Shown: positions 8,724 through 43,699 of the stretch, piece after piece
Layout: every line of letters begins with the position of its first letter
Numbering within the stretch: position 1 is the stretch's first letter
Assembly: GCF_000981445.1 (NCBI RefSeq)
Contig: NW_012237203.1
Location: 1 to 45,585, forward strand
Reading direction: 5' to 3'
From: Babesia bigemina
Lineage: Eukaryota
DNA length: 45,585 nt
Made by a program: the position numbers and the translations under genes
The notes under the pieces: generated by a model
The model's input: only the letters and a program-made list of their open reading frames with translations
The model's database searches: none
Told to the model about the DNA's origin: nothing

Positions 8724-8873
8724 AATTTAGTCGAATTTCTTGTAAAGCTCCCTAGGCGGCACATGGTCAGGGCAGTGGCAAGAGGTGGAAGAGGGCAAGG
8801 GAAGGGTGTCAAGGCACAAGTTATTATTGTGGTCTAAAGAGGTCATAGCGGTATTATGGCGAGGTAATTCGAG

Positions 8874-11800
8874 GGATGTAGAGTGGGTTAAGGAGCGATG
8901 TAGAGTGGGTTAGGGAGCGATGTAGAGTGGGTTAAGGGAGCGATGTAGTGTGGGTTAGGGAGCGATGTAGAGTGGGTTAGGGGCGATGTAGAGTGGATAA
9001 GGGGCGATGCAGAGTGGGTTAAGGAGCGATGTGGAGTGGGTTAGGGAGCGATGTAGAGTGGGTTAGGGAGCGATGAAGAGTGGGTAAGGGGCGATGTGGA
9101 GTGGGTAAAGGGGCGATGTAGAGTGGATAAGGGGCGATGTGGAGTGGGTAAAGGGGCGATGAAGAGTGGGTTAGGGAGCGATGTAGAGTGGGTTAGGGAG
9201 CGATGAAGAGTGGATAAAGGGGCGATGTAGAGTGGATAAAGGGGCGATGTGAAGTGGGTTAGGGAGCGATGAAGAGTGGATAAAGGGGCGATGTAGAGTG
9301 GATAAAGGAGCGATGTAGAGTGGGTTAGGGAGCGATGAAGAGTGGATAAAGGGGCGATGTAGAGTGGATAAAGGAGCGATGTAGAGTGGATTAGAAAGCG
9401 ATGTAGAGTGGGTAAGGGAGCGATGTAGAGTGGATAAAGGGGCGATGTAGAGTGGATAAGGGAGCGATGTAGAGTGGGTAAAGAAGCGATGTAGAGTCGG
9501 TAAAGGGGCGATGTAGAGTGGATGAAGGGGCGATGTAGAGTGGATAAAGGAGCGATGTAGAGTGGGTTAGGGAGCGATGTGGAGTGGGTTAGGGAGCGAT
9601 GTGGAGTGGTTTAAGGGGCGATGTAGAGTGGGTTAGGGAGCGATGTGGAGTGGATTAGGGAGCGATGTAGAGTGGATAAGGGAGCGATGTGGAGTGGGTT
9701 AGGGAGCGATGTGGAGTGGTTTAAGGGGCGATGTAGAGTGGGTAAGGGAGCGATGTGGAGTGGATTAGGGAGCGATGTAGAGTGGGTAAAGGGGCGATGT
9801 AGAGTGGATAAGGGAGCGATGTAGAGTGGGTAAAGAAGCGATGTAGAGTCGGTAAAGGGGCGATGTAGAGTGGATGAAGGGGCGATGTAGAGTGGATAAA
9901 GGAGCGATGTAGAGTGGGTTAGGGAGCGATGTGGAGTGGGTTAGGGAGCGATGTGGAGTGGTTTAAGGGGCGATGTAGAGTGGGTTAGGGAGCGATGTGG
10001 AGTGGATTAGGGAGCGATGTAGAGTGGATAAGGGAGCGATGTGGAGTGGGTTAGGGAGCGATGTGGAGTGGTTTAAGGGGCGATGTGGAGTGGGTTAGGG
10101 AGCGATGTGGAGTGGGTAAAGGAGCGATGTAGAGTGGATGAAGCGGCGATGTAGAGTGGGTTAGGGAGCGATGTAGAGTGGATAAAGGGGCGATGTAGAG
10201 TGGATAAAGGGGCGATGTAGAGTGGGTTAAGGAGCGATGTAGAGTGGGTTAAGGGGCGATGTAGAGCGGATAAAGGGGCGATGTAGAGTGGGTTAAGGGG
10301 CGATGTAGAGTGGATAAAAAGGCGATGTGGAGTGGGTTAGGGAGCGATGAAGAGTGGATTAAGGAGCGATGTAGAGTGGGTTAGGGAGCGATGTGGAGTG
10401 GGTAAAGGGGCGATGTGGAGTGGGTAAAGGGGCGATGTGGAGTGGATAAGGGGCGATGTGGAGTGGATAAAGGAGCGATGTAGAGTGGATAAAGGGGCGA
10501 TGTAGAGTGGATAAGGGAGCGATGTAGAGTGGATAAAGGGGCGGTGAAGAGTGGGTTAAGGAGCGATGTGGAGTGGATAAAGGGGCGATGTAGAGTGGGT
10601 TAGGGAGCGATGTAGAGTGGGTTAAGGAGCGATGTAGAGTGGGTTAGGGAGCGATGTAGAGTGGACAAAGGGGCGATGTAGAGTGGGTTAGGGAGCGATG
10701 TAGAGTGGATAAAGGAGCGATGTAGAGTGGATAAAGGGGCGATGTAGAGTGGGTTAGGGAGCGATGTGGAGTGGATAAGGGAGCGATGAAGAGTGGGTAA
10801 AGGGGCGATGTAGAGTGGATAAAGGGGCGATGTGGAGTGGATAAAGGGGCGATGTAGAGTGGGTTAGGGAGCGATGTAGAGTGGATTAGGGAGCGATGTA
10901 GAGTGGGTTAAGGAGCGATGTGGAGTGGATTAGGGAGCGATGTAGAGTGGATAAGGGGCGATGTAGAGTGGGTTAGGGAGCGATGTAGAGTGGGTAAAGG
11001 GGCGATGTAGAGTGGGTAAAGGGGCGATGTAGAGTGGGTTAGGGAGCGATGTAGAGTGGATAAAGGGGCGATGTAGAGTGGGTTAAGGAGCGATGTGGAG
11101 TGGGTAAAGGGGCGATGTAGAGTGGATAGAGGAGCGATGTGGAGTGGGTTAGGGAGCGATGTAGAGTGGATAAGGGGCGATGTAGAGTGGGTAAAGGGCG
11201 ATGTAGAGTGGATAAAGGGGCGATGTAGAGTGGGTTAAGGGGCGATGTAGAGTGGATAAAGGGGCGATGTAGAGTGGGTTAAGGGGCGATGTAGAGTGGG
11301 TTAAGGGGCGATGTGGAGTGGGTAAAGGGGCGATGTGGAGTTGGTAAAGGGGCGATGTGGAGTGGATAAGGGGCGATGTGGAGTGGATAAAGGAGCGATG
11401 TAGAGTGGATAAAGGGGCGATGTAGAGTGGATAAGGGAGCGATGTAGAGTGGATAAAGGGGCGGTGAAGAGTGGGTTAAGGAGCGATGTGGAGTGGATAA
11501 AGGGGCGATGTAGAGTGGATAAAGGGGCGATGTAGAGTGGGTTAGGGAGCGATGTAGAGTGGGTTAGGGAGCGATGTAGAGTGGGTTAGGGAGCGATGTA
11601 GAGTGGATAAGGGGCGATGTAGAGTGGATAAAGGGGCGATGTAGAGTGGATAAGGGGCGATGTAGAGTGGATAAGGGAGCGATGTAGAGTGGGTTAAGAG
11701 GCGATGTAGAGTGGGTAAAAGGGCGATGTAGAGTGGGTTAAGGGGCGATGTAGGGTGGATAAGGGGCGATGTAGAGTGGGTTAAGGGGCGATGTAGAGTG

Positions 11801-12045
11801 GGTAAAGGGGCGATGGAGAGTGGGTTAAGGGGCGATGGAGAGTGGGTTAAGGGGCGATGGAGAGTGGGTTAAGGGGCGATGTCGAGTGGATAAAGGGGCG
11901 ATGTGGAGTGGATAAGGAGCGATGTAGAGTGGGTTAAGGGGCGATGTAGAGTGGTTAAAGGGGCGATGTAGAGTGGATAAGGAGCGATGTAGAGTGGGTT
12001 AAGGGGCGATGTAGAGTGGTTAAAGGGGCGATGTAGAGTGGATGA
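8874..12045. repeat. 22-bp minisatellite array 2 (~3.2 kb)
   Basis: Same unit as array 1, with internal block duplications. Confidence 0.97.
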
Positions 12046-12678: not shown

Positions 12679-12840
12679 TTAGCTGTAGAATGCGATGCAG
12701 AACGGTATCTTGCGTACGAGGAAATCGCGGATGTTGCGGCCCACCGGGAAGCGGAAGATGCACAGGTCGAGCAGGATGATGGCGACGATGATGGCAACGA
12801 TGACGGCGGCGATGGCGGAGTAGGGAGGGTCATGGTCACC
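12679..12840 (-). pseudogene. Orphan transmembrane-plus-tail coding fragment without start codon
   Basis: A frame not in the ORF track reads GDHDPPYSAIAAVIVAIIVAIILLDLCIFRFPVGRNIRDFLVRKIPFCIAFYS*, i.e. a clear hydrophobic helix followed by a basic tail. TGA lies immediately upstream. Confidence 0.6.
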
Positions 12841-12923
12841 TCACTGCTCATGTGATTTGTCATCAACGCAATCACTACTCTGTCTACAACATTACATGTC
12901 AGTGGCCAGTTCGGTTATTGTGA

Positions 12924-13058
12924 CTAGCTGCGCAGTAGATACCGCACCCTGTGGAACGGCCGAATGCGGAAGTAGATCATGACGCAGATGACGACGATGA
13001 TGAAAGCGACGGAGGCGATGATGTAAGGGGCGGGGGAGGTAGTCACCTCGCTGCTCAT
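12924..13058 (-). pseudogene. Duplicate of the TM/tail of the Cys-rich gene; forms a 44-aa mini-ORF
   Basis: Reads MSSEVTTSPAPYIIASVAFIIVVICVMIYFRIRPFHRVRYLLRS*, a copy of the 3' end of 13129-13599. Confidence 0.6.
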
Positions 13059-13128
13059 GCGATTGATCATCAACGCAATCATTACTGTCTATAACATTAG
13101 ATGTCAGTTGCCAGTTAGATGATTGTAA

Positions 13129-13599
13129 TCAGCTGCGCAGTAGATACCGCACCCTGTGGAACGGCCGGATGCGGAAGTAGATCATGGCGCAGATGACGAC
13201 GATGATGAGGGCGACGGGGGTGATGATGTAAGGGAGGGGATTAAAATTGGATGACGTAGAGTCATCGGTAGAAGATGCTCGAAGAGAGACGCTGTCAGAG
13301 AGCTGTTGAGTGGAGATTTGAGACAGAGCGCCGGGGGCAGAAGCAACAAACCGTTCACCGGTGGAAGTACGAACATAGACAGCAGGGCGTTTTGCCACAC
13401 AACAGTAACATTGACAGCTGGTGTCACATTTTTGACATCTCGAATGATCGCACAGCCATGCTCCACTCATGCGCGAAATTCGGAAACTGGCACATAGACG
13501 ACAATATTTGTTACATCCCCTACAACACCATGAACAGCATTTACAGTCACGCTTTGTACAGCTCTTGCCACACGTACACGGAGGAGTCCAATCACTCAT
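13129..13599 (-). CDS. Small Cys-rich protein with C-terminal TM anchor (156 aa), unknown function
   Basis: ATG at 13599 (MSDWTPPCTCGK). It has 18 Cys in the first ~67 aa, a Ser-rich linker, TM PYIITPVALIIVVICAMIYF and tail RIRPFHRVRYLLRS. The paralog at 28257-28730 keeps all 18 Cys while other residues diverge. Confidence 0.8.
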   Translation of the reverse strand: MSDWTPPCTCGKSCTKRDCKCCSWCCRGCNKYCRLCASFRISRMSGAWLCDHSRCQKCDTSCQCYCCVAKRPAVYVRTSTGERFVASAPGALSQISTQQLSDSVSLRASSTDDSTSSNFNPLPYIITPVALIIVVICAMIYFRIRPFHRVRYLLRS

Positions 13600-13606
13600 C
13601 TTCCCA

Positions 13607-14443
13607 CTCCCAGTCCCCTCAACCTGCAAACTTATCAATCACCTAGCAACGCACTCACCAACTGCAACACTTACACTGCCGCTCCCAGTCCCCTCAACTG
13701 CGAACATATCAATCACTTAAGCAGCACTCACCAACTGCAACACTACCACTGCCGCTCCCAGTCCCCTCAACCTGCAAACATATCAATCACCTAAGCAAGC
13801 ACTCACCAACTGCAACACTTACACTGCCGCTCCCACTCCCCTCAACCTGCAAACATATCAATCACCTAAGCAAGCACTCACCAACTGCAACACTTACACT
13901 GCCGCTCCCACTCCCCTCAACCTGCAAACATATCAATCACCTAAGCAAGCACTCACCAACTGCAACACTACCACTGCCGCTCCCAGTCCCCTCAACCTGC
14001 AAACATATCAATGACCTAAGCAGCACTCACCAACTGCAACACGTACACTGCCGCTCCCAGTCCCCTCAATCTACAAACATGTCAATCACTTCATCAAGCA
14101 CTCACCAACTGCAACACGTACTACTGCGGCTACCACTCCCCTCAACCTGCAAACTTATCAATCACCTAGCAACGCACTCACCAACTGCAACACTACCACT
14201 GCCGCGCCCAGTCCCCTCAACCTGCAAACATGTCAATCACTCAAGCAGCACTCACCAACTGCAACACTACCACTGCCGCGCCCAGTCCCCTCAACCTGCG
14301 AACATATCAATCACCAAGCAACGCACTCACCAACTGCAACACTACCACTGCCGCGCCCAGTCCCCTCAGCCTGCGAACATATCAATCACCTAACTAACGC
14401 ACTCACCAACTGCAACACTACCACTGCCGCGCCCAGTCCCCTC
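13607..14443 (-). repeat. ~74-bp tandem repeat, 11 units, each resembling an exon plus a ~34-38 nt GT-AG intron
   Basis: The minus-strand unit is GTTGAGGGGACTGGGAGCGGCAGTGGTAGTGTTGCAGTTG | GTGAGTGCTGCTTAGGTGATTGATATGTTTGCAG. Only 2 units occur at the paralogous position 28749-28905. Confidence 0.85.
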
Positions 14444-14956
14444 ATGAACACTTACCCTCACCCCTGTATCCCCCCAGCCCAGGCCACCGACACCCACGCT
14501 GCCCAGGATACCACAGCTCCACCTGACGCGACGCATGTGATTATCACCAACTGTCACTTTAAATTATTCACTATTCGCAACGCCATAAAAATTGCAGCGA
14601 CCCGTGCGCTCAACTCCCACAGTGCAGCAGCACCGTGCTACGAGCCGCGGTATCGGCGCCATACTGGCGGAGCGTGTCGGCTACGTGCCTAAATGTGATA
14701 TTAACAATCGCTACATCGCTGCCTATAAACGCCATTTAACCAGGCCAACGCGGATTACGCCACCCTGCCAGTGACTCGCAACACACTACTTGGGTCACCC
14801 GCCGCGGCCCTCACGACCGCCTACGTTAGCAACCAATCACCCAGCCTCACGTGACACCAACTCACTGGGCAACGCGGACACCTCTCACAGTCAACGCGTT
14901 ACTCAACGCACCAGGCAATCAACGTGCTACAACACCCACCATATTACGGTTCATCC
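14444..14956 (-). promoter_or_regulatory. Conserved non-repetitive block upstream of the Cys-rich gene (putative promoter/5' leader)
   Basis: Colinear and highly similar to 28905-29420. It contains CCAATCA and CACGTG (14848-14853) in both copies. Function is inferred from position only. Confidence 0.45.
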
Positions 14957-15447
14957 GCCAGCTTAGCACTTTGCCTGTGTGCTAGCTTATCACTTTGCCT
15001 GGTTGCTAGGTCAACACGTTGCCTGGTTGCCAGCTTAGCACTTTGCCTGATTGCCAGCTTAGCACTTTGCCTGGGTGCCAGCTTAGCACTTTGCCTGGTT
15101 GCCAGCTTACCACTTTGCCTGGTTGCTATGTTAGCACTTAGCCTGGGTGCTAGCTTACCACTCTGCTTGCGTGTAAGCTTACCACTTTGCCTGGTTGCCA
15201 GCTTAGCACTTTGCCTGGTTGCTAGCTTAGCACGTTGCCTGGGTGCTAGGTTACCACTTTGCCTGGGTGCTAGCTCAGCACTTTGCCTGCGTGCTTGCTT
15301 AGCACTTTGCCTGCGTGCTTGCTTAGCACTTTGGCTGGTTGCTAGGTTAGCACGTTGCCTGGTTGCCAGCTTAGCACTTTGCCTAGGTGCTAGTTTAGCA
15401 CTTAGCCTGGATGCTAGCCTAGCACTTAGCCTGGTTGCTAGGTTACC
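14957..15447. repeat. 24-bp minisatellite AGCTTAGCACTTTGCCTGGTTGCC (~20 copies)
   Basis: Direct inspection. It explains the SLALCLVA periodicity of ORF 14924-15466. Confidence 0.92.
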
Positions 15448-15611: not shown

Positions 15612-17117
15612 TCACGGTTGCAGGTACGATATCTTGGCAAGCCTTCCGACTTGCGCTGCCGCCAACAATGATTGCGCCGTTATCTTGTGCGATGACGGTG
15701 ATCGTAAGTGTGAGCGTATGTGGAGCACATCCAGTCTGCCAACCATGACGCAGATGAGGTAGAAGAGGGACAGTGACCAGAGTGCGACGGTCATCCACAG
15801 GAATGGTGCGCGGATGGTGAACAGGAATTCGTCGCACTCTTTGAACAATGCTGTGAAATGCGTCGATTGCAGTACATTTTTCAGTTGTATGTAAAAATGA
15901 TGGCAATAACTCTTACTGGTATCGCCGTGTAATTTAGTCGAATCGCGAAAAGTGAATCCGTAACTGTAAAAAGTACTACTTACACCGCGGCATTCGACAA
16001 TTCCGCGACACTGACAGTTCTCCATGCCGTGCTTACCGCGAGAACATTTCGTTCCATGAGTACAACGACTGCATCCCCAGTCGCGGCAGGAAATATTGCC
16101 GAATGAGTCCAGCAGTGATTTCAGGCAATCGTACAATGCCAATGGTAAATAGAGAGCCCATGAGAAATACAGTTCTGAATGCTTCTCGGCGAGATAGGTA
16201 TATGAATCGTCGCATAGAGCTCTGAGATAAGGAGCGCAATGAATCTTATCGCTACTAGCAAACGTACAATTCGTCTCCGCGGAGAGCGTAGACAGGTCGG
16301 CTTCTGAGTATGTTTTATGCTCTTCGAGACGGTGGCTGTGATATGCATCGCGAAGCGCATTCGTGAAGTCACTCGTGTCCTTGTACAGTTCGATGGACAT
16401 CTCCTTGGTAGCCGTTTCAAATGCTGTTTTGACTGCATTGCCATTGACGCCTTTACTATTGTCCAGCATACGCACCAATGTCGAAACAAACTGGTAGTGT
16501 TCTGGTAATGTAGACGGCGGTTTGGGCATCAAGCAAAGCAACGATGAATATTGCACATTGACGAAGAATTTAGTCAGCGCTTTGCATAGGTCCTCACCTG
16601 TCTTCATACCACCGGAAAAGCCACGGAAGCCGAGAGGCGTCAGGCAAGGTTGGCCGGGGAGAACCTTTGGACACGTCGCACATTTGGCCTTGCAACCGAT
16701 GCTGCTTACCTGGTGAGGCAAGTGGCCGGTAAGGCAATCGGACAAATAAGACTGAAGTGGCGATGTTGGTTGGCACTTTGCCAGGCACGTTGGTTGACCA
16801 TCTGCTTGGCACGCTGCTTTGCCCGTTGAGTGATCATTACACTGCGATTTAGATGACTCTACGCCTTTACCGTACCAACAGTCGGACCAACCGCGATGTT
16901 CGGCAGTCAACTTACACTGGCTGTGCAAGAAGTTGAGCGATGGCAATAAACTACGGAGGATGTCAAGCAGCATTTGTAGGCAGTCGTAGCCTTTGGACGG
17001 GTAGTGTAGATTTAGTGAATTACTGCAAAAGTCGACGGCGTACATGGAGTACGCGTCTCCTGTGCCGAGGATTGCAGTCAGCAGATCGTATGATCTCAGA
17101 CATAGGTGGCGCACTGC
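15612..17117 (-). pseudogene. ves1: 3' part of interrupted ves1-like gene (ves-B)
   Basis: AVRHLCLRSYDLL...TM...HLRSPSSHKITAQSLLAAAQVGRLAKISYLQP aligns with AVKRLCSRSHDIL... of ves-C. It joins in frame to 21454-25530 once the element and one TSD copy are removed. Confidence 0.88.
17105..17117. repeat. Target-site duplication, left copy (GGTGGCGCACTGC)
   Basis: Identical 13-mer at 21441-21453. The flanking bases differ on both sides. Confidence 0.93.
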
Positions 17118-17203
17118 TCTTGTTAAATTAAGTTATCTCATCTTATAGTGTGCTATGTGGCTACGTGCCTAGGGCCGGTTTTCGTGTTTGCGGGGCTAAC
17201 GCC

Positions 17204-18280
17204 TCACGCTGAAACCGGTTGCGGGATCCACGCCGGTCCATTGCCGGACGTCACTGGTGCCATCCATGCGGGCATCCATCCAGTTTGGGCTTGAGGGTCT
17301 TCTACGGAATCGTAGTCTTCTTTCGGCTTCATATCCCTCATCACTATTTTATGTGTTTCTTGGATCACTACCCTTTGTATGTGGGCTTCCATGCGATCCG
17401 ATATGCCCAGGTCCCGTCTATACTTGCTGTGTTCTTTCGTCACTATTCCCTCCCACGTCATAACGTAGGGGATAACCCTGATCTTGGTGTGCTGGTTAAA
17501 CTGTCGCGCCTTGAGGTCCTCAATAAGGTCTTCATACTTCTGCTTCTTGAACTTCTCCGTATCCACTAGGTTGTCTTGATTGGTGATTCCTATCTCCACG
17601 ATGGTTATGGTGTTCCTCCGCCGATCCGCCAGGATGATGTCTGGCCTGTTGTATTCCTTAGTCTTCTGAGTCTTGACCGTCTTGTCGTACGCGATCCATC
17701 CGTATTTTCCATGTACTTCACTCTCGATCTTGTGGGCGTCTATCTTCTCCTTGGGTAGTCCTATTTGCCTCCCGAGTACTGAGTGGACCCGTTTTGCTAC
17801 CTCGTTGTGCCTCTTCGTATATTCTAGGTGTAGTAGTTTCTGGCACTTCGTCGCGAGGTGATCCACGTTCTTGCCGTTGTTGCATCTTGTGCATTTCTTG
17901 GACGAAGACATCCATTGCAGATTCCTATCCTGGACTTCCGCTACGTTCGCTTCTTCTTCCGGAGTGAGTATTCCACACGTCAGGTACAAGGACGACGCCT
18001 CAATGTCCAGCTTGGGGTCCTCACGCTTGGCATACAGGACCTTATGAGTTGATTTTACGTGCATTCTGTTGTACAGCCATTTGTTTTGGGCCACCCTGAG
18101 GTCCCTGAGGCTCTTGTCCGTAGTGTCCTCCATTCCGAATTCCATTCCATATCTTCCTTCCAGGTGCATCTTGATGTGAGATATGTGCGCGTATGTGTCG
18201 CGAAAATGCTGCATGATCGCAGCTCTCCTGGTTGACGTCACCTCGTCTGCTGAAAGCGTCAACCACAGTCGTAGCAGCAT
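17204..18280 (-). CDS. C-terminal part of retrotransposon ORF: CCHC knuckle plus PD-(D/E)xK restriction-like endonuclease
   Basis: Motifs CTRCNNGKNVDHLATKC, YTKRHNEVAKRVH, NRPDIIL, IVEIGIT and KKQKYEDL occur in the canonical RLE order. Separated from the RT part by frameshifts. Confidence 0.88.
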   Translation of the reverse strand: MLLRLWLTLSADEVTSTRRAAIMQHFRDTYAHISHIKMHLEGRYGMEFGMEDTTDKSLRDLRVAQNKWLYNRMHVKSTHKVLYAKREDPKLDIEASSLYLTCGILTPEEEANVAEVQDRNLQWMSSSKKCTRCNNGKNVDHLATKCQKLLHLEYTKRHNEVAKRVHSVLGRQIGLPKEKIDAHKIESEVHGKYGWIAYDKTVKTQKTKEYNRPDIILADRRRNTITIVEIGITNQDNLVDTEKFKKQKYEDLIEDLKARQFNQHTKIRVIPYVMTWEGIVTKEHSKYRRDLGISDRMEAHIQRVVIQETHKIVMRDMKPKEDYDSVEDPQAQTGWMPAWMAPVTSGNGPAWIPQPVSA

Positions 18281-18375
18281 GCTTCCGCTCTAAATACCAT
18301 GCTGTGGAGCCCTCTCCCCATCTCTTTCCGGGGGAGGTAGAGCCTCTGTGTGTTCGCCCACTTCTTGTGTCCGCC

Positions 18376-21245
18376 TGCGCGTTAATTATTCTCCGTACTG
18401 CCAGGTCGATCTTGTCGACATGCGTGATGTCCATAGGGATCACGCCGATGTAGTAGTTGATGACGCTGAGGGCGTACTGGTTGATGGCCATCGAGAGGTT
18501 TTTCCCCGACAGCTTTGACGCAGCCAGTAGCTCCGTTCTCCTGCATATCTCCTGTAGTATTATGTCGAACATTCCGTCGCTTGTCAGTGAGTTTGAAGTC
18601 TCTGTGACTCCCAAGTACTTGTACGTTTCCGGGCCTTCCATCTGCTTGGCGATGCTGGCGCACGCCTCCGTGTTGGTTGCCGACTTGTCGCGGTTGATCC
18701 TGAGTCCTATGTCGTTGAAGAACTTCTCCACTTCTCGGCCCATTCCTCTCATCGTACTTTCCTCGTGGGCGAAGAACTTGAGGTCGTCAATATAGAGAAA
18801 GTGGTTTGTGGCGAATATCCTGCCGCCGGTCACGCTTAACTCCACCTTGGGGAAGATGCGAGTCAGGTGCCTGCTCAGCGGGTCCAAGCACAGCACGAAG
18901 AGAAGGGGCGATAGGCTGTCGCCTTGGAGAATGCCCCTCTCCACTTTCTTGTGCATGATTGTGTTCTTGTTCCACCGTATCTCTATATTCCACCTCTTGA
19001 TCGTCTGCTTGATGAAGTTTGATAACCACCCTGGTAGGTTAAGGTTGTCGATAACCCTTGCCAGGTACGCGTGGTCGATTGAGTCGTACGCCTTCATGAC
19101 GTCGACCCACGTTGCAAGTAACTTCCCCTTGTGCTTCTCGTTGAGCGCGATGTTCGCTAACGCGTGCTCCTTTGCACCCTGTACGTTGCTCCTCGTGCCC
19201 ATCTGGTTCTCGGACCGTAGTCCCCTGCCATCGACTTCTCGCTTAAGCGTCTCCGTTGCACAGCGGGTAGTTAGCTTGTATAGGTTGGACATGCATGTGA
19301 TAGGCCTGTACTGTGCGGCGGACTTTGGTTTCTTGTTCTTCGGTAGTAGGTACGTGATCCCACAGTAGAACCAGTCGTCCTGCACTTTGCCTTGCTGGCA
19401 TGCCTCCTCTACTAGCCTGTAAATGACTCTGTGAAGGGACGTGAGCCATTTAATGTAGTAGTTGTAGATCCCATCCGCACCGGGCGACTTCCAGTCTCGC
19501 AATTTCTTGACGATCGTGACGAATTCCTCGTATGTGGGAAAGCCTGCCTTGTTCTCTGCCGGTGGTCTTTCGACCAGATATCCTTCACCGTTGTGCGGTG
19601 CGTTTGGCTTCACCCACATTTGCGCCCAGTACTCTATCATCATCCCCTCGTTTATCGCCGACTCGTCCGCGTCCTGCTTGTTCTCCAGTGTCCTGTAGAA
19701 GTGTCCCGTGTAGAGCTCGAACATGCGGTTGTCGTTGTACAACTCCTTCTTGAACTTGGCGTTCTTGAGTTTGTCCTGCTCCTTTTGGAGCTCCTCTTGA
19801 GTCCTGCTGATCACGTATGACAGTTCCTGCGGCTTGTCCGCGATCATGTTGTACTTGTCCATTTGGCGATAAACGCGTTTCCTATCCTCCTTCTCCAGGG
19901 GGACCTTCTGCTTGTATTTCAGAAGTAATGCTCCTATCTCCTCCAGCTCCTTGATCCTCCTCTCAGCTGCCTCCTTCTTTCCCGAGGACGACGATGGTTT
20001 TGCGCTGTACTTGTCGTAGCAGTCCTGTGCCGTCTGATACAAGACGGCTAGCATCCCCATGTCAGTGACTGGGTTGTGCTTCACGTAGTTGTGGACCACT
20101 AGATCCAGCGACCTTATCGCCGTGAAGTCGAGGGAGTCCATGGTGTGTCTTTTGTTCTTTACTGTCCTAATCACACCAGGCTCCCTCAACCTCTGTGCCA
20201 TGATCCGGTCGAAATCCTCCTGCAGGGCGTTGTATGAGTCGACGTCGTGCAGCGATGCTATTTCTCCAACGTCCGTCGGTTGGCTCCGCGCTGCTTTGGC
20301 GACTACCTGTCTTGCCATCTGCTCCACCTCCTTGTGGGTCTTGTGGAATTCGAAATGCTCGTTGGCATATTCCGCGAGGACTTTCCATCCTCCTCGTGGC
20401 ATCCTCTGATACTTCGTCACTACTGCCTTGTAGACGTCCGGTACCCAATGACACCATGGTCCATCGATCTGACGCATGACACAGTGCAGGAACTGTAACT
20501 TGGCATTCAGCCTAGCGTAGTTCGGCGGCATTTGTGGCGTGTTCCCGGCCCGTTCAGCCTGCGGGGCGTGCCCTTCGGGTGCCCTCGGCAACGCAGCCGT
20601 CTCAGTGAGCGCCACCTCACTGGCGGTGCCCGGTGCTATACTGTTGTTTGATTCTCTCACAGGCCCGACTTGCTCAGGTTCCTCTTCGTCCACGTCCATA
20701 AAGTCATCCGACGATATGGAATACACGGTCGGAGAGCGGCAGCCACCGTTTCCGACAACCTCCCCTGCCGGTGGCTGCAGGGTAGACAGTGTCTGCACAC
20801 ACACGGGTGCGCGTTCCGAGGAACTCGGCCCGGCGTTGCAAACCACGACAGGCGGCGTTTGAGCCGTGTTTCCTGTCTTTTTGGCCTTCCGGTTGTTACC
20901 CTTTTGGCCCTGGGGACCGCCGTTCCGCGCTTTGTTTCCAGCGCCCTTCACAGCCGGAGTGGTTCCGGGCTGGTGTCGTTTCCGGCTTGCCTGCGGGATT
21001 GGCCGGCTTTCGCCGCCACGGCCGGCCCCCTTCGAATTTGTGGGTTTACCTTTAGGGCCCTGAACACCGCTTTGTACCGGTTTTCTGGATTCATGCCGCC
21101 TTTCGGGTTGCCGACACTCTCGGCGCCCCACGGTGGCAAGCGGAGCATCGATGTCCATCCCATCGGGGACGTCCACGTCAATAACCATGAGGTCTCCGTC
21201 CTCATCGATTTGACTGCTCAGCTGCACTTCTTGTGAGCTCTCCAT
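18376..21245 (-). CDS. N-terminal and reverse transcriptase part of retrotransposon ORF
   Basis: ATG at 21245. Motifs KSPGADGI, YRPITCMSNLYKL, NQMG, WVDVMKAYDSIDH, RGILQGDSLSPLLF, HFLYIDDLK, GLRINRDKS and YKYLG are non-LTR RT motifs in order. Meaningful sequence leaves this frame at ~18376. Confidence 0.93.
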
Positions 21246-21440
21246 TGGTACCTTGTTCGTCTATCCAGCGCGCCTGTGTGGCCGCCTTTCGCCTCGCGAT
21301 GTTGCCGCTTTAATTCCGCACTTTTGGCCTTCAATACACCCCCCAGTGACATCGGAAAATTTTCCTTTCTGTGATAAACCCGAGAAAACACGTTTCTCAA
21401 AGTTTCCCCCAAAATCACAGAAGATTCCAACTCCAACTCC

Positions 21441-21453
21441 GGTGGCGCACTGC
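21441..21453. repeat. Target-site duplication, right copy (GGTGGCGCACTGC)
   Basis: Identical to 17105-17117. Confidence 0.93.
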
Positions 21454-24400
21454 CTTTACGCTATTGTCATACGTGATGTTACTCGGGTACGCGTTCAGGC
21501 ATAATGCATCTGGCGTGACTAGCGTGAACTCATGGTCCTCGCCGGCCTCTGTCGTTTGCTTCTTTGGATCTTCGAATAAGTCACTCATCGTGTCACGCAA
21601 CAACGCATCATACACAGAATTGCACGGCAACCCACACAACCAGCACAGCATTTCGAACACGGAGGATGGCTGTCGCTTCGCCGCGAAGGTGGACTGGTGA
21701 CAGACTTCATAATATGTTTCAAGGCAGTTGTGTAAAGTTTTAAGTGGGCCAGTGTCTTTCTCAGCATCATGATGTTTGTAGACACGGCCATCGTCATTCT
21801 TAACGAGGCTTTTGTAGACATGCCAGCCTAACATACCATCTCCGTGACGCAAGTGACCGTCTTGTTTGTCCTTGGATACGACGTATCCGTTGTTGCCGAG
21901 GAATTGTCCAATTGGTGTCGATTGATGTATCTTGTCGGACCTCCACGTGGTAACGGAGTACTTTCTTACTGTGTTCAGCACATTGTATGACGTCGAAACT
22001 ACGGTCAAGCAGACCTTACTTAACTTGGTTCCGTACGCTGTTAGTTTATCTTTTTCGACGAGCTCAGCACCAAACCTCTCACTGTCGTAGGTCGAGATGT
22101 ACGCATTGTTGAGCTCCGTTGCCGAAGTCGTGAAACCGTTCTTCAGAGCATTGAGAAGCGAAGGGGTATTCCCTTCACCATATAATGAAGGCTTCAATTC
22201 ACTGAGCGTTACTTTCAGCGCCGATAGATTTCGAGAAAACTCGTGATTGAAGTACTCCGAAGTGACAAGATCTCCGAACAACTTAGCCAGCGCGTCACGT
22301 GTTGGCTTAATTTTTTCATAGTCCGTTTTGAAGTCCGGCTGCTTCTCTAGATCATGCAAAAACCTATTTAGGCTTCCAAAGAACTTTGCTGCCGCCTGAC
22401 TCATTGGTGATTTTTCTTGCGCAACGGGCTTAGGATTTATGTCTTTGATGGTCTTGATTGACTTTTCGTGCGTTACGAAGTGCTTCTCAAATTTCTTCAT
22501 GAACCCCTTGTAACCGATGTCCAGATCGTCGGTGATTTCCTTAGGTAGAAGCTCCAACTCCTTCTTGGTTTTTTCCGCAAACTCTAGCAGCATGTCTTGC
22601 ACCGAAGTGACGTAGTTCTTGTTGATCTTGGTGATGAGATCCTTCTGGGCTTCTTCGACGTTTGAGCTGACAAAAGATCCGATCGCTGTGATCGTAGCCT
22701 TACCGGTAGGTTCAGCGCTACTTAGGAAGTAGGTAGCCTTTTTGATGACGTCATTCAACTCTTTGTTACCTAGCTCACTGATTTCATATCTGATTCTATT
22801 AATGCTATCCTTCACATGTTCAGCCTTGTTGAAGAACTTGTCTCTCAAACTGATCAGATTCCCCTTCGCAAATTCGCCGTCACTCTTAACTAACTGACAG
22901 AGGTCATGAAGAGTGGCAGTGACTTTCTCCAATTCCTTTACTGCGTATTCCTTTTCACTGTCGATTTTATTCAAAGCAGACTTAACTTTCTCCCTAATAT
23001 CTTTGATCTTCTCCGGAAGGGTGCCTGCTAGCTGGTCAATGTCACCGCTTAACTTGCCTGGTGTTTGGTCGACGCACGTTGTGTAACCAGTGAATATACT
23101 AGCATCCATCTTCACTTTTGCAGGATCACTTGCTGGATCGCTGTCATCCTTTTTTAACTTCTCCCCAAGGACTCTCGTCACCCCCTCGATCGCGTTGTCG
23201 ACGGCGGCGGCGAACGTTTCTTCTCCATTTGTTTGCCCTTTTTCGTTAACGCCCAATGCCTTCTCCAATTTTCGAACTATCTCTTTTGCTGTTTTATAAG
23301 CGTTATCCACATTCTTAAAACTGCAATCTTTTAAAAGCTTGTCAATTTTTTCAGCGCCACCACGCGCACGTCCGATGAGTAAATTAAATGTAGCTTCCAC
23401 TGTTATTTTAAGATAGTATTCATAAGCTGTTTTGAATGTAGCTGAATCTTGATATCCTAATTTGAGATGTACTTGGTGAGTGAAAGATTCAACATCGCTA
23501 GCTTTCGTTTGTTTTTCAAGCGCCTCAGCCAGCTGCACGAGAAATGACGATGTGTATTTTAGATTCGTATCTATATCGCTGTTGGAGTCTTTCGGCGTCG
23601 GCGGTATTTTAATGCGTTTGACAATGCTAGTAGTAATCTCATTCGTTAGCGCCTTTATAACGTCTTGCAATTTTTCACCATTATTTTTTACATACCAATA
23701 TAGATACGTTCTCACCGGTTCTTTTTCAGCTAGCGTCGACGTCCACATCTTCAAAACCTTCTCCCCGAAAGTATTCTGATTGAACTCATCCAAATAACCC
23801 CTCACTTTGTACACAATTGCCGCCAGACCTGATGGTCTTGTTACATCTTCTCCTGCTTTGCCCCGTATGCCTGCAACTTCACTTTTTATCTGCTGAATAA
23901 CTTTTTCAATCTTCTTATCTTTTTCGGTTACTGCGCTGCCTGGTCTTTCATTTACCGTCTCGTACAACTTCCCAATCGCATCCTTAATCCCCGTCACCTG
24001 CCCCTCCACCGCGTGCTTCACCTTAAACAAATCCCCTTTAAGCGCGTCGTCCATGGATTTCACCTGCGCAAGGGCCTTAGTAACTTCTTCTTTGACGAAT
24101 CTACCAGCGTCCGATCCGGCTCCGTGCAGCATCAGTACGGCAGTGCTAATCTCCCTTACAGCGCCCTCAATTCTATACGGCTTCATACCTGAATCGCCTT
24201 CGTTAACCTCTTTCAGTAGTGATTCAACCTTCTCCAAAGCCGACGTTATAACTATCGTGACTGAGTCAATCCACGTTTGCAGCTCACTTACGTACCCCTT
24301 TAGCTTGCCACTAATGATGTTAAGCTGCTCTAAGATTTTCTGCACCCTCGACTTTAAGTCATTGACAAGTTTATCTATATCTTCACGAACTTTGTTATTT

Positions 24401-25578
24401 ATGCAGTTTTCGACGTTGGAAAATACAGATTTAATCTTTGCTGTCGTTTCCTGCAACTCATTTTGCCGGCTCTCTGCCATTCTATTCATTCGGTCGGTCT
24501 CATACTTAACACTCTTAATGGAATTCTTAACTCTAAGTGATAAGTCATTATTAAGATCATTGATCGCGTTTTTAATTATATTATCGGTATTGTCAATGTT
24601 CAACTGAGTATTAAATTTCGCTGCGTGCTTCTGACATTGTTGAAGCAGCTTGTCGATCTTCTCTACGGCGCTGCTGACCTGGAAGTCCTTGGCTTTAGAA
24701 AGTGTTTCTTGCGGTAGTATCTCGGTTACACTTCTCTTGAACCCTTCATTCACCTGCGAAAGTATGAGAGTCATCGGTTCACTCACCTTTTTATTACTGC
24801 CAGCAACACTCTCATTATACCCCCGCACCCCTTTAACCACACTTTCAATCGCAGCATTAAAACCTTTTTTACCGGCGTGTTTTTTCTCGTTAAGTATGTT
24901 AATTGCTTCAGTAATTTGCTCATTATGCTGCCCTAAATGCTCTTTGATGTTACTGAGAACACCACTCAAAAACGCCACCACCCCGTCACACAGCCTGTCA
25001 AGGTCAGAGTAGACAATCCCAGTGCCGTCGTAGCCTTTGGAAGTTGGATTGAAGCCGAGGAAAGTTTGAAGTCCATCACATAAATTAACTAAGAGATTTT
25101 TAGGCTCATTTTGTTGTTTATTAGAATTAGTCAAAGATCCACAAAGCTTCTCCACTTTCTCCAAAGCCTCCAACTTGGACTGCAATTTGGCTAGCTCAGC
25201 AGAGGAAGAGGGGGAAGGAGAGTTATGATTAAGGTTATTAGGCTTATTAAGTTGCGTAATTTGATAAGTAATTTCGGCAATTTTTTTAGACACTTCAAGT
25301 TGAAGTTGACCAATTACACCGGTGTCATCAGCCTTGCCAGCAGAGTTAACAGACTCAGAAAGCTTAGTAACATGAGAGGAGTAATCATTTTTAAGCTCTT
25401 CATGACTGTTAATTTTAGCGATAATAGCATACATAACGGCTTTCTTAACACTCTCACTTTGACCAACAAATCCTCCAAGTTGACCAGCAAGGTGACCAAG
25501 GCTAATGAGCTTGGAGTCAATGTCATCCAAGGCTCTTCTAGTAGCATCGTCACTAAGAGAATGGTCAGTATCAACAAG
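21441..25578 (-). pseudogene. ves1: 5' part of interrupted ves1-like gene (ves-B)
   Basis: Has the LCDGLQTFLGF...GIVYSDLDRLCDGV block and EMLCWLCGLP. Homology stops at NSVKAVRH, and translation runs 8 codons into the element (RSWSWNLL*). The frame opens after TAA at 25579-25581. Confidence 0.88.
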
Positions 25579-25766: not shown

Positions 25767-27756
25767 GGATGTAGAGTGGGTTAGGGAGCGATGAGGAGAA
25801 GGTTAAGGGGCGATGAGGAGAAGGTTAAGGGGCGATGTAGAGTGGATAAAGGGGCGATGTAGAGTGGGTTAAGGAGCGATGTAGAGTGGGTTAGGGAGCG
25901 ATGTAGAGTGGGTTAAGGGGCGATTAGAGGAGGTTAGGGAGCGATGTAGAGTGGGTTAGGGAGCGATGTAGAGTGGATAAAGGGGCGATGTAGAGTGGGT
26001 TAGGGAGCGATGTAGAGTGGGTTAGGGAGCGATGTAGAGTGGATAAAGGAGCGATGTAGAGTGGATAAAGGAGCGATGTAGAGTGGATAAAGGAGCGATG
26101 TGGAGTGGGTAAAGGGGCGATGTAGAGTGGATAAAGGGGCGATGTAGAGTGGATAAGGGGCGATGTAGAGTGGGTTAGGGAGCGATGTAGAGTGGGTTAG
26201 GGAGCGATGTAGAGTGGATTAGGGAGCGATGTAGAGTGGTTAAGGGGCGATGTAGAGTGGATAAAGGGGCGATGTGGAGTGGGTTAGGGGCGATGTAGAG
26301 TGGATAAAGGAGCGATGTGGAGTGGGTAAAGGGGCGATGTGGAGTGGATAAAGGGGCGATGTGGAGTGGGTTAGGGAGCGATGTAAGGTGGGTTAGGGAG
26401 CGATGTAAGGTGGATAAAGGAGCGATGTGGAGTGGATAAAGGGGCGATGTGGAGTGGGTTAGGGAGCGATGTGGAGTGGATAAAGGAGCGATGTAGAGTG
26501 GGTAAGGGAGCGATGAGGAGTGGATAAAGGAGCGATGTGGAGTGGGTAAAGGGGCGATGTAGAGTGGATAAAGGAGCGATGCGGAGTGGATTAGGGAGCG
26601 ATGTAGAGTGGGTTAAGGAGCGATGTGGAGTGGATAAAGGGGCGATGTAGAGTGGATAAAGGGGCGATGTAGAGTGGGTTAGGGAGCGATGTGGAGTGGG
26701 CTAGGGAGCGATATAGAGTGGGTAGAGGAGCGATGAAGAGTGGGTTAAGGGGCGATGTATAGTGGAGTAAGGGGCGATGTGGAGTGGATAAAGGGGCGAT
26801 GTAAGGTGGGTTAGGGAGCTATGTAGAGTGGGTTAGGGAGCGATGTGGAGTGGATAAGGGAGCGATGTAGAGTGGGTTAAGGGGCGATGTAGAGTGGATA
26901 AAGGAGCGATGTAGAGTGGGTTAGGAGCGATGTGGAGTGGATAAAGGGGCGATGTAGAGTGGATAAAGGGGCGATGTAGAGTGGGTTAGGGAGCGATGTG
27001 GAGTGGGCTAGGGAGCGATATAGAGTGGGTAGAGGAGCGATGAAGAGTGGGTTAAGGGGCGATGTATAGTGGAGTAAGGGGCGATGTGGAGTGGATAAAG
27101 GGGCGATGTAAGGTGGGTTAGGGAGCTATGTAGAGTGGGTTAGGGAGCGATGTGGAGTGGATAAGGGAGCGATGTAGAGTGGGTTAAGGGGCGATGTAGA
27201 GTGGATAAAGGAGCGATGTAGAGTGGGTTAGGGAGCGATGTAGAGTGGGTAAAGGAGCGATGTAGAGTGGGTTAGGGAGCGATGTAGAGTGGGTTAGGGA
27301 GCGATGTAGAGTGGCTAAAGGAGCGATGTAGAGTGGATAAGGGAGCGATGTAGGGTGGGTAAAGGGGCGATGTAGAGTGGATAAGGGGCGATGTTGACTG
27401 GGTTAGGGAGCGATGTAGAGTGGATAAAGGGGCGATGTAGAGTGGATTAGGGAGCGATGTGGAGTGGATAAAGGGGCGATGTAGAGTGGATAAGGGAGCG
27501 ATGTAGAGTGGATTAAGGGGCGATGTAGAGTGGGTTAGGGAGCGATGTAGAGTGGATAAAGGGGCGATGTAGAGTGGATAAAGGGGCGATGAGGAGTGGG
27601 TTAAGGAGCGGTGTAGAGTGGATAAAGGGGCGATGTAGAGTGGATAAAGGGGCGATGAGGAGTGGGTTAAGGAGCGATGTAGGGTGGGTTAGGGAGCGAT
27701 GTAGAGTGGGTTAAGGGGCGGTGTAGAGTGTGTTAGGGAGCGATGTAGAGTGGATA
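25767..27756. repeat. 22-bp minisatellite array 3 (~2.0 kb)
   Basis: Same unit as array 1. Confidence 0.97.
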
Positions 27757-27764
27757 ATAATCAC

Positions 27765-27980
27765 CACTTAGGTCAGGTGCTTGGTCAACACGTTGGTCAT
27801 GGCATTGGTCAACACGTTGGTCACCACTCTGGTCAGCACTTTGGTCATGGCATTGGTCAACACGTTGGTCAACACTTTGGGCAGCACATTGGTCAACACT
27901 TTGGTCAGCACTCTGGTCAGGTGATTGGTCAGCAGTTAGGTCATGGCATTGGTCAGGTGCTTGGTCATCTCACTGGTCAT
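27765..27980. repeat. 12-bp TTGGTCA-core repeat
   Basis: Direct inspection. No 20-bp array at this junction. Confidence 0.88.
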
Positions 27981-28050
27981 GTGATTCGCCATCAACGCAA
28001 TCATTACTGTCTACAACATTAGATGCCAGTTGCCAGTTAGGTGATTGCGA

Positions 28051-28172
28051 TCAGCTGCGCAGTAGATACCGCACCCTGTGGAACGGCCGGATGCGGAAGT
28101 AGACCATGACGCAGACGACGACGATGATGAGGGCCACGGGGGCGATGATGTAAGGGGCGGGGATATGGTCAC
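28051..28172 (-). pseudogene. Duplicate TM/tail fragment of the Cys-rich gene
   Basis: Reads GDHIPAPYIIAPVALIIVVVCVMVYFRIRPFHRVRYLLRS* with no in-frame start. Confidence 0.6.
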
Positions 28173-28256
28173 CTCACTGCTCATGTGATTGATCATCAAC
28201 GCAATGCTTACGTAGTCTAGCACATTAGATGCCAGTTGCCAGTTAGGTGATTGCGA

Positions 28257-28730
28257 TCAGCTGCGCAGTAGATACCGCACCCTGTGGAACGGCCGGATGC
28301 GGAAGTAGATCATGACGCAGATGACGAGGAAGATGAGGGCGACGGCGGCGATGATGTAAGGGAGGACGTTTGTAGATGCTGAATCGGAGGCGATGGCAGC
28401 TGGGTGGTGATTGTCGGAGCGCTGCTGAACATGGGAGGAGGTGGAGGAACCGAGGGCACGGGAGGAAGCAAGGGACTTGGCGGCACGCTGGGCACGAAGA
28501 GAAGTATCATGGCGTTTAGTCCTACAACAGAAACATTGGCATTGTTCTTTGTCACAGTCTCCACATATTGTATCATTGCAATCCCCGAATCCCGTCATGC
28601 GCAAACCAGACAAATGGAGACATGGAAGACATCTCCTTGGCTTACATTTTGCACAACACCAGGGACAGCAATTACACACCACACGCTCTCGACACTGTTT
28701 GCCACAGTTACAGTCCAAGAGTCCGCTCAT
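28257..28730 (-). CDS. Small Cys-rich protein with C-terminal TM anchor (157 aa), paralog of 13129-13599
   Basis: ATG start, 18 Cys in the same spacing pattern, TM PYIIAAVALIFLVICVMIYF and an identical RIRPFHRVRYLLRS tail. Confidence 0.8.
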   Translation of the reverse strand: MSGLLDCNCGKQCRERVVCNCCPWCCAKCKPRRCLPCLHLSGLRMTGFGDCNDTICGDCDKEQCQCFCCRTKRHDTSLRAQRAAKSLASSRALGSSTSSHVQQRSDNHHPAAIASDSASTNVLPYIIAAVALIFLVICVMIYFRIRPFHRVRYLLRS

Positions 28731-28748
28731 CTTCCCGCTCCCCTCCCA

Positions 28749-28905
28749 GTCCCCTCAACCTGCGAACATATCAATCACTCAAGCATCGCACTCACCAACT
28801 GCAACACGTACCACTGCCGCTCCCAGTCCACTCAACCTGCGAACATATCAATCACCTAAGCAGCACTCACCAACTGCAACACTACCACTGCCGCTCCCAG
28901 TACCC
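28749..28905 (-). repeat. Two units of the ~74-bp exon/intron-like repeat
   Basis: Same unit as 13607-14443. Confidence 0.8.
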
Positions 28906-29420
28906 TCATCAACACGCACCCTCACTCCTGTATCCCCCCAGCCCAGGCCACCGACACCCACGCTGCCCAGGATACCACGGCCACGCCTGACGCGACGCAT
29001 GTTATAAGCAACTAACAATCAATTATAATCATTATTCACTCGATGTCTATAAAATTGCAGCGAACCCCGTGCGCTCGACTCCCACAGTGCAGCAGCACCG
29101 TGCTACGAGACGCGGTATCGGCGCCATGCTGGCGGAGCGTGTCGGCTACGTGCCTAAATGTGATACTAACGATCGCTACATTGGCGCCTATAAATGCCAT
29201 TTAACCGGGCCAACGCGGATTACGCCACCGTGCCAGTGACTCGCAACACACGACTTCGGTCACCCGCCGCGGCCTTCACGGCCGCCTACGTTAGCGACCA
29301 ATCACCCAGCCTCACGTGACACTCACTCAATGGGCAACGCGGACGCCTCTCACAGTCAACGCATAACTCAACGCACCAGACAATTAACGTGCCACAACAC
29401 CCACCAAATTACGGTTAATC
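28905..29420 (-). promoter_or_regulatory. Second copy of conserved upstream block
   Basis: Paralogous to 14444-14956. Confidence 0.45.
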
Positions 29421-29606
29421 CGCCAGCTTACCACTTTGCCTGATTGCTAGCTTACCACTTTGCCTGGATGCTAGGTTAACACATTGCCTGGTTGTTAGCT
29501 TACCACGTTGCCCGGCTGCTAGCTTAGCACTTTGCCTGGTTGCTAGCTTAGCACTTAGCCTGGTTGCTAGGTTAGCACTTCGCCTGGTTCCTAGGTTATC
29601 ACTTTG
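29421..29606. repeat. 24-bp minisatellite (~8 copies)
   Basis: Same unit as 14957-15447. Confidence 0.88.
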
Positions 29607-29753
29607 CATTGTCGTTCACTCATCACCTAATTTCAACGCTATTTAGTTCACAGGTTGCCGCTGGAGTAATTCGAGACATTAGACTACGTTTGTCAGTTAG
29701 GTGAGTAGGTGATATGCTAGGTGAGTTACTGTGAATTACAAATGTGACGATGA

Positions 29754-43639: not shown

Positions 43640-43699
43640 GGCACAAGTTATTGCTATGGTTTATAGAGGTCATAGCGGTATTATGGCGAGGTGATTCAA

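What the first reader, a model, noticed from the sequence alone, without database searches (positions are those of the whole stretch)
17105..21453. R4/Dong-like non-LTR retrotransposon inserted in a piroplasm variant-antigen gene
Seen: a 4323-bp element with a complete set of non-LTR RT motifs (YIDD active site), a CCHC knuckle and an RHN/PD/E/KxxKY restriction-like endonuclease. It is flanked by a perfect 13-bp duplication, and excision restores ...DNSVK-AVRH-LCLRSY... in frame (~1860 codons). Established: this single-ORF RT+RLE layout defines early-branching clades (R2, R4, NeSL, CRE). Motifs such as QGDSLSPLLF, HxLYxDDLK and RLYLPRKExGRGL are typical of R4/Dong, and nematode R4 also makes a 13-bp duplication. 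Apicomplexans are generally described as nearly transposon-free, the exceptions I know being LTR/Gypsy types (e.g. Eimeria, avian Plasmodium). Inference: a genuine, recent target-primed insertion of a possibly uncharacterised piroplasm family. The TSD and seamless host frame argue against contamination. I cannot verify novelty without a search.
Basis: partly seen in the sequence, partly recalled or inferred. Interest (0 to 1): 0.95.

Follow-up and report, generated by a model that had tools for sequence, protein, structure and literature searches.

The report
Young retrotransposon splitting a Babesia antigen
A 4.3-kb retrotransposon splits a surface-antigen gene of a cattle blood parasite (likely Babesia bigemina), is missing from this site in other samples, and belongs to a young family whose enzyme groups among those of microsporidia, so it likely jumped between two unrelated parasites.

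Summary
Real. A 4,323-bp element (17118-21440, minus strand) lies between two copies of a 13-mer inside a ves1-family antigen gene. Contigs from two other runs carry the empty site. It encodes a reverse transcriptase, a CCHC knuckle and a restriction-like endonuclease whose predicted fold matches solved R2 proteins. This copy has two 1-nt gaps; Babesia bigemina records hold at least 8 intact 1,347-aa siblings, 1-4 residues apart. Relatives occur in B. ovata, B. caballi and B. divergens. The family is not unseen: a 2022 survey reported unclassified LINE-like elements in these species. Not found in my searches: its anatomy, a polymorphic insertion in ves1, and its origin. Babesia RTs form one clade nested among microsporidian RTs (about 50% identity; 100/99 support; microsporidian monophyly rejected, p=0.0002, or 0.015 after dropping biased rows); named animal elements sit near 30%. 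Best reading: horizontal transfer from a microsporidian into an ancestral Babesia, still or recently active. R4/Dong membership is plausible but untested against named references. No fixed target sequence was seen, and targeting of ves genes is not shown.

The parts
17105..17117 (.). Target-site duplication, copy at the element's 3' end (13 bp)
   Evidence: single copy in the empty-site contigs
21441..21453 (.). Target-site duplication, copy at the element's 5' end (13 bp)
17118..21440 (-). Full-length non-LTR retrotransposon, 4,323 bp, 53% GC, same sense as the host gene, only copy in the window
   Evidence: a contig of run X1 covers 17122-21434 with 10 substitutions and 2 gaps
21246..21440 (-). 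5' UTR, 195 nt; begins with a 6-nt unit present twice, whereas contigs of runs X1 and X2 stop matching at 21434
   Evidence: no Rfam family; folding z -1.5
18375..21245 (-). ORF part 1: low-complexity N-terminus without a zinc finger, then the RT (Pfam RVT_1 at about 18603-19328; YIDD 18783-18794); 3 differences from the intact sibling P0004 in 956 residues
18280..18374 (-). Stretch between two single-base gaps that break this copy's ORF; holds the RLYLPRKEMGRGL motif in a third frame
   Evidence: (table 4)
17204..18279 (-). ORF part 2: linker, CCHC knuckle (about 17843-17893), restriction-like endonuclease (RHN about 17812 to KKQKY about 17534), stop codon; identical to P0004 over 358 residues
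17118..17203 (-). 3' UTR, 86 nt, AT-rich end, no poly(A) tail
21454..25578 (-). 5' part of the interrupted ves1-family gene (long exon, 1,375 codons stop to junction)
15612..17104 (-). 3' part of the interrupted ves1-family gene: cysteine-rich region and one C-terminal hydrophobic segment

Best explanation
This is a full-length non-LTR retrotransposon with a restriction-like endonuclease that splits a ves1 variant-antigen gene and is absent from the same sequence in other samples; it likely inserted recently by target-primed reverse transcription, and its family likely entered an ancestral Babesia by horizontal transfer from a microsporidian. Shown: RT, CCHC and RLE domains, 13-bp duplication, empty allele, near-identical intact siblings, relatives in four Babesia species, tree position. 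Inferred from R2 biochemistry (established knowledge): protein from an intact copy binds element RNA, nicks one DNA strand, primes cDNA from the nick on the RNA 3' end, and a second nick 13 nt away leaves the duplication. Inferred: this copy as assembled would give a protein without the endonuclease, and the gene it hit would lose its membrane anchor; the parasite likely tolerates that because ves1 has many copies. Inferred: target choice is loose, and copies survive mostly where they do little harm. The tick, which can host both parasites, is a plausible but untested meeting place.
For: Insertion. Domains: a profile of 65 relatives matches vertebrate R2 (E about 1e-52, through knuckle and endonuclease) ahead of L1 (1e-40, RT side only); the model of the C-terminal part (pLDDT 88.8) has 7 of 7 matches at E<=0.001 to R2 structures. 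Youth: 4 distinct 1,347-aa proteins under 8 listed GenBank accessions, 1-4 residues apart. Selection: 21 of 43 listed substitutions are synonymous against 21-27% expected (best-supported rows only). Transcription: in a published RNA-seq table the intact copy CDR71823.1 has 23/35/31 blood reads against 0/0/0 in tick samples, and five other family models have 143-640 blood reads (PMC9806345 supplement rows). Origin: after Babesia, every named hit above 35% RT identity that I could place is microsporidian, apart from Octopus sinensis scaffolds and bacterial MAG labels. In a 31-row tree, Babesia (6 rows, 100/99) joins 10 microsporidian rows (100/99) to the exclusion of Enteropsectra, Dictyocoela and Amphiamblys; AU p=0.000226. 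Without the 5 rows of odd composition the nesting holds, p=0.015 (quick tree). Copies lie on Babesia contigs of 2-4 Mb. Microsporidia occur in hard ticks (PMC8760655, search listing and start of abstract).
Against: Most of the closest non-Babesia relatives are unnamed metagenomic proteins, so the donor is not identified. No sister taxon of the Babesia clade is resolved. Microsporidia hold several paralogous lineages, so nesting among them is not a species-level signal. The rows of the named tree were hand-picked, and the group was tested after a first tree had been seen. The searches list only their best 120-150 rows. No tick microsporidian was sampled. No read spans a filled junction here. 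The empty-site contigs differ from the window at a few bases and may be a paralogous ves locus. RNA counts may be read-through or multi-mapped.
Confidence: 0.72

Rival explanations
1. The insertion is real, but the family came from an unsampled eukaryote that supplied both microsporidia and Babesia, or moved from a piroplasm into microsporidia.
For: Dozens of unnamed metagenomic rows and three Octopus sinensis rows of uncertain provenance sit inside or next to the clade. No single named sister to Babesia.
Against: The named rows branching below the Babesia-containing clade are microsporidian (Enteropsectra, Dictyocoela, the metchnikovellid Amphiamblys), and RT diversity is much wider among microsporidia than in Babesia.
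Confidence: 0.14
2. The lineage is ancient and was inherited vertically, kept in microsporidia and some piroplasms and lost elsewhere, as argued for Utopia elements.
For: PMC4640811 argues a pre-supergroup origin for Utopia (passages). PMC9141347 offers gain-and-loss scenarios for piroplasm LINEs.
Against: About 50% RT identity between Babesia and microsporidia, against about 30% between Babesia and animal elements, although animals are the closer kin of microsporidia. No other alveolate among the listed hits. Nested position.
Confidence: 0.08
3. On target choice only: the endonuclease actively prefers ves genes or their chromatin, using the antigen family as a safe harbour as R2 uses rDNA.
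For: Of 7 database gene models that fuse the element to an extra stretch, 3 are ves-like in 3 species: P0123 (B. bigemina), P0138 (B. ovata; collinear ves halves on both sides) and P0007 (B. caballi, VESA1_N). RLE elements often target multicopy genes (PMC4640811).
Against: The other 4 fused models have no ves match. Nine different 3' flanks among the listed loose ends show no shared motif by eye. The B. ovata and window sites are at different places in the gene. One chromosomal copy lies next to a housekeeping gene on one side. ves-like genes are 8% of coding sequences (PMC4066756) and tolerate loss, so survival bias alone could enrich them.
Confidence: 0.25
4. Assembly chimera or contaminating DNA.
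For: No listed contig spans a filled junction. The two 1-nt gaps could be consensus errors.
Against: Exact duplication at both ends, collinear host halves, empty allele in two runs of different studies, siblings on chromosome-scale Babesia contigs, relatives in four species.
Confidence: 0.02

Closest known systems
'LINE-like' elements of Babesia bigemina, B. ovata, B. divergens and Theileria equi (Rodriguez & Makalowski 2022, PMC9141347; read parts 1-3 of 5 and keyword passages)
   Same: Very likely the same family for the three Babesia species: same species distribution, 0.97% of the B. bigemina genome, three B. divergens copies called R2 by MGEScan.
   Different: The main text has no occurrence of Dong, microsporidia or horizontal, and the parts read give no anatomy, TSD, polymorphism or ves link. 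Their models could not be compared; whether the T. equi element is the same family is untested.
R4 clade (nematode R4, Bombyx Dong, fish Rex6; features recalled, original papers not held)
   Same: Single ORF, no N-terminal zinc finger, RT then CCHC then RLE, short TSD. The nearest named animal relatives are insect elements, as expected for Dong-like families.
   Different: Only about 30% RT identity to those animal elements; separate, fully supported branch shared with microsporidia. No rDNA or fixed target seen.
R2 retrotransposons (PDB 8gh6, 8ibw, 9dou, 9nl2, 9nl3)
   Same: RT-knuckle-RLE layout and fold; presumed TPRT mechanism.
   Different: No N-terminal CCHH finger, no 28S target, and single-sequence RT similarity no better than to L1.
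Microsporidian non-LTR RTs (Hamiltosporidium, Vairimorpha, Nucleospora, Astathelohania, Pancytospora, Nosema granulosis)
   Same: 42-50% RT identity and one clade with Babesia. Microsporidian TEs have a published record of horizontal exchange with animals (PMC4202319, title and passages).
   Different: Unnamed full-length relatives in this clade are about 1,140-1,150 aa against 1,347 aa here. No exchange with Apicomplexa is mentioned in that paper's main text (0 occurrences of Babesia or apicomplex).

Membership tests
RLE-type non-LTR retrotransposon (R2 group) | Non-LTR-type RT with YxDD | tested here: met
   RVT_1 E=1.2e-30, YIDD; best solved relatives are R2 and L1
RLE-type non-LTR retrotransposon (R2 group) | C-terminal CCHC knuckle and PD-(D/E)xK endonuclease | tested here: met
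   C136, H144, C149, R160, H161, P216, D217 invariant in 65 rows; profile and fold match R2
RLE-type non-LTR retrotransposon (R2 group) | Single ORF, no apurinic endonuclease, no LTRs | tested here: met
   Intact sibling is one 1,347-aa ORF with RVT_1 as its only Pfam hit; no internal repeat by self-blastn. This copy is broken by two 1-nt gaps.
RLE-type non-LTR retrotransposon (R2 group) | Target-site duplication and empty allele | tested here: met
RLE-type non-LTR retrotransposon (R2 group) | Target-primed reverse transcription activity | not testable with these tools
   Needs biochemistry; inferred from structure and TSD
R4 clade (R4, Dong, Rex6) | RT groups with named R4, Dong and Rex6 against R2, NeSL, CRE, HERO | not testable with these tools
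   No named reference was returned; the outgroup used is unnamed insect and sponge elements
R4 clade (R4, Dong, Rex6) | No N-terminal zinc finger (feature recalled) | tested here: met
   No CCHH pattern in P0004
R4 clade (R4, Dong, Rex6) | Specific repeated target such as rDNA or a microsatellite (common in the clade, not universal) | tested here: inconclusive
   Target here is ves1 coding DNA; 9 other listed 3' flanks differ, one is a short tandem repeat; many rows were not shown
R2 clade | Insertion in 28S rDNA and N-terminal CCHH fingers (recalled) | tested here: not met
Babesia ves1 family (host gene) | Conserved C-terminal domain with one transmembrane helix; similarity to VESA1 proteins | tested here: met
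   Hydrophobic 19-mer at 437 of 496; Atlas clusters with VESA1 names or VESA1_N (14-79% of members), all Apicomplexa, score 0.95-0.98; definition from PMC4066756
Babesia ves1 family (host gene) | Pfam VESA1_N domain | tested here: inconclusive
   No hit in the window's long ORFs; N-terminal exons were not located
Babesia ves1 family (host gene) | Assignment to ves1a or ves1b | not tested
   No labelled reference at hand

The most novel reading that the evidence does not exclude
A retrotransposon captured from a microsporidian, probably in a co-infected tick, invaded the ancestor of Babesia sensu stricto, is still jumping in B. bigemina, and uses the ves variant-antigen family as its preferred home. 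It would then prune and reshuffle the antigen repertoire and be the missing reverse transcriptase behind the proposed retro-origin of B. bovis ves1-alpha.
Probability: 0.25. Interest if true: 0.88.

Novelty: new member of a known kind. Interest (0 to 1): 0.62.

Why it matters
Apicomplexan genomes are nearly free of transposons, and the patchy LINEs of piroplasms have no explanation in the survey that found them. A transfer from microsporidia would explain them and be a rare case of a transposon crossing between two unrelated intracellular parasites. An insertion polymorphism inside ves1 shows a route, besides gene conversion, by which the antigen repertoire changes between strains. It also makes an old idea testable: ves1-alpha was proposed to be a retrocopy of a ves1-beta transcript (PMC4066756), and that paper's main text has no occurrence of 'transcriptase', so names no enzyme. 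The multicopy, polymorphic ends could serve as strain markers. Annotations that fuse the element to ves exons (4,034 and 2,412 aa models) need correcting.

Tried and rejected
Rfam over 17000-21600: one sub-threshold snoRNA match, no HDV-like ribozyme. UTR folding is not better than shuffles (z -1.5, +0.6, +0.7). No RNA holder listed among sequencing runs; run X4 is only guessed to be RNA and was not used as evidence of expression. Higher summed contig depth at the 3' end would fit 5'-truncated copies but is no copy number, so it was not used. Atlas search with the element gave only generic RVT_1 clusters. Original R4, Dong and NeSL papers are not held. A third homolog search from the outgroup returned unnamed insect proteins, no named Dong or R4. 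Neighbour genes of database copies: no rows in the B. ovata supplement, no ves labels in the Jackson supplement (file 1 not searched), and only expressed genes in the RNA-seq table. Earlier scan findings: none. The careful tree on the reduced set did not finish; the quick tree was used. Keyword passages of PMC5660447, PMC6715253, PMC6537212, PMC13627686 and PMC7313128 hold nothing on this element.

Full report
Setting. The window is a tandem array of four long minus-strand genes (3114-8726, 15612-25578 interrupted, 29754-34664, 37781-43660) separated by repeat blocks. The 3' part of the interrupted gene falls in Atlas clusters named or annotated as VESA1, all Apicomplexa, at scores 0.95-0.98, and ends in one hydrophobic segment, as described for ves1 (PMC4066756 passages). 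Pfam VESA1_N did not match the long ORFs. The element's protein is 99-100% identical to B. bigemina records, so the host is very likely B. bigemina.

The observation. A 13-mer occurs twice in the window, at 17105 and 21441, enclosing 4,323 bp. The host flanks share a codon register and align end to end on the paralog at 29754-34664: up to residue 1148, and from 1156. Of 24 runs listed, 9 hold part of the stretch; 6 were laid. One X2 contig joins 17104 to 21441 with 13 letters fitting either side, and two X5 contigs pass from 17117 into the far flank. X2 and X5 are from different studies. The uninserted form therefore exists in nature, at this locus or a close paralog. No listed contig spans a filled junction.

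Anatomy. A 195-nt 5' UTR leads to one ORF of 1,347 aa in intact siblings, then an 86-nt 3' UTR without poly(A). The RT matches RVT_1. The C-terminal part has invariant knuckle and RHN/PD residues in 65 aligned relatives. A profile of that alignment ranks vertebrate R2 first, through to the endonuclease, and the predicted structure (pLDDT 88.8) has 7 of 7 matches at E<=0.001 to R2 entries. There is no CCHH finger, no apurinic endonuclease and no LTR. This copy lacks one base at about 18373 and one at about 18280 relative to all 4 runs laid; outside that stretch it differs from sibling P0004 at 3 residues. Mutation and consensus error cannot be told apart.

The family is young. Two clusters hold 14 B. 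bigemina proteins. Four are distinct full-length sequences under 8 listed GenBank accessions, 1-4 residues apart. Of 43 substitutions listed in the read tables, 21 are synonymous, against 21-27% expected, and none makes a stop (289 further rows were not shown). In a published RNA-seq table the intact copy CDR71823.1 has 23/35/31 reads in blood and none in tick samples, and five other models have 143-640 blood reads; four accessions of identical copies are absent from the table (PMC9806345 supplement rows). Multi-mapping and read-through are not excluded.

Target choice. In sample S1 a 5' flank and a 3' flank share an 11-mer unrelated to the window's 13-mer, which reads as a second insertion with a shorter duplication (by eye, from two contigs). 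Nine different 3' flanks are listed over, with no common motif by eye; 113 and 15 rows were not shown. Seven database gene models fuse the element to an extra stretch, leaving aside five B. caballi rows where the extra stretch is the element's own N-terminus. Three are ves-like (P0123, P0138, P0007) and four are not matched (P0133, P0052, P0059, P0070). In B. ovata P0138 the two flanks are collinear on one ves protein, so a ves gene was hit there too, at another position. Repeated presence in ves loci is real; preference is not shown, since these genes are numerous and dispensable.

Origin. Relatives: B. ovata 77-79%, B. caballi 52-59%, B. divergens 56% over the RT; microsporidia and unnamed metagenomic proteins up to about 52%; then a step down to about 30%. 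B. rossi has a fragment 57% similar to a B. bigemina RT model (PMC12210458 passage). No tick, cattle, Theileria or other alveolate name appears among the listed rows (120 of 149, 120 of 451). A fast tree of 217 rows (229 passed a 315-residue cut; 12 near-identical B. bigemina rows dropped) gave one Babesia clade inside a group holding Hamiltosporidium and Vairimorpha, with Enteropsectra further out; a deeper row proved to be Dictyocoela, and the distant group contains insect elements. I then picked 31 named rows (6 Babesia, 15 microsporidia, 10 animals; Octopus, MAG-labelled and unnamed rows left out). Babesia is one clade (100/99) and joins 10 microsporidian rows (100/99), with 5 others outside. 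Microsporidian monophyly is rejected (p-AU 0.000226). After dropping the 5 rows of odd composition the picture is the same, with p 0.015. B. bigemina and one B. ovata lineage are sisters, as their hosts are; a second B. ovata lineage branches deeper. One entry into an ancestral Babesia from a microsporidian lineage is the simplest reading. Microsporidia occur in hard ticks (PMC8760655, listing and start of abstract), which makes the tick a plausible but untested venue.

What is known. PMC9141347 (parts 1-3 of 5 and keyword passages; its supplement as held showed only genome-list rows) reports LINE-like elements in B. bigemina, B. ovata, B. divergens and T. equi, absent from B. bovis, without clade, structure or origin. 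PMC10463595 (passages) notes an RT gene cluster in B. caballi. PMC4066756 (passages) does not mention the RT. Ten full-text searches listed no paper whose title or abstract start describes an R4/Dong-like element, a ves insertion or a microsporidian origin in Babesia. Subscription journals, Repbase, Dfam and the survey's GitHub models were not searchable, and supplements I could not see (Tables S2 and S6 of the survey) may classify the family.

Verdict. It is a new, well-defined member of a known kind, already glimpsed as 'LINE-like'. It works like R2/R4 elements; R4/Dong membership is plausible and untested. The interest lies in a polymorphic hit in a variant-antigen gene and in the likely transfer from microsporidia. 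Interest 0.62.

Noticed in passing
window 397-1887, 8875-12041, 25768-27753, 34819-36704, 43702-45582: A 1.5-3.2 kb array of a 22-bp unit with extreme strand skew (GC skew about 0.8) lies upstream of every ves1 ORF, followed on the + strand by 20-bp and/or 12-bp arrays. It may be intronic or regulatory, or a recombination aid.
   Followed up: no
window 12835-15445 and 27962-29607: The two ves1 genes that end in ...KISYLQP are each followed by a 24-bp, a 75-77-bp and a 205-bp repeat; the two that end in ...RVFYLQP are not. Two gene sub-types with their own downstream cassettes.
   Followed up: partly
window 3218-3292: A 30-bp in-frame tandem duplication in the C-terminal membrane region of the first ves1 gene.
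   Followed up: no
proteins P0123, P0133, P0138, P0007, P0052: Public gene models that fuse the retrotransposon ORF to host exons, up to 4,034 aa; likely annotation artefacts. P0123 has 9 peptides in a published proteome table; which part they come from is unknown.
   Followed up: partly
proteins P0054, P0062, P0076 (Octopus sinensis); P0026, P0158, P0159, P0068 (bacterial MAG labels): Members of this microsporidia-like RT group filed under an octopus and under bacteria; likely contaminating parasite DNA.
   Followed up: no
protein P0052 (B. ovata) and BBBOND_0200510/0200530 (B. bigemina): In both species an element copy lies near a myb-domain gene, apparently on opposite sides; shared locus or hot spot untested.
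   Followed up: no
window 17118-17150, runs X1, X2, X3: 3' ends of other copies carry a repeat of the terminal 13-mer or a run of 6-nt units resembling the element's end, which suggests template slippage at the start of cDNA synthesis.
   Followed up: partly
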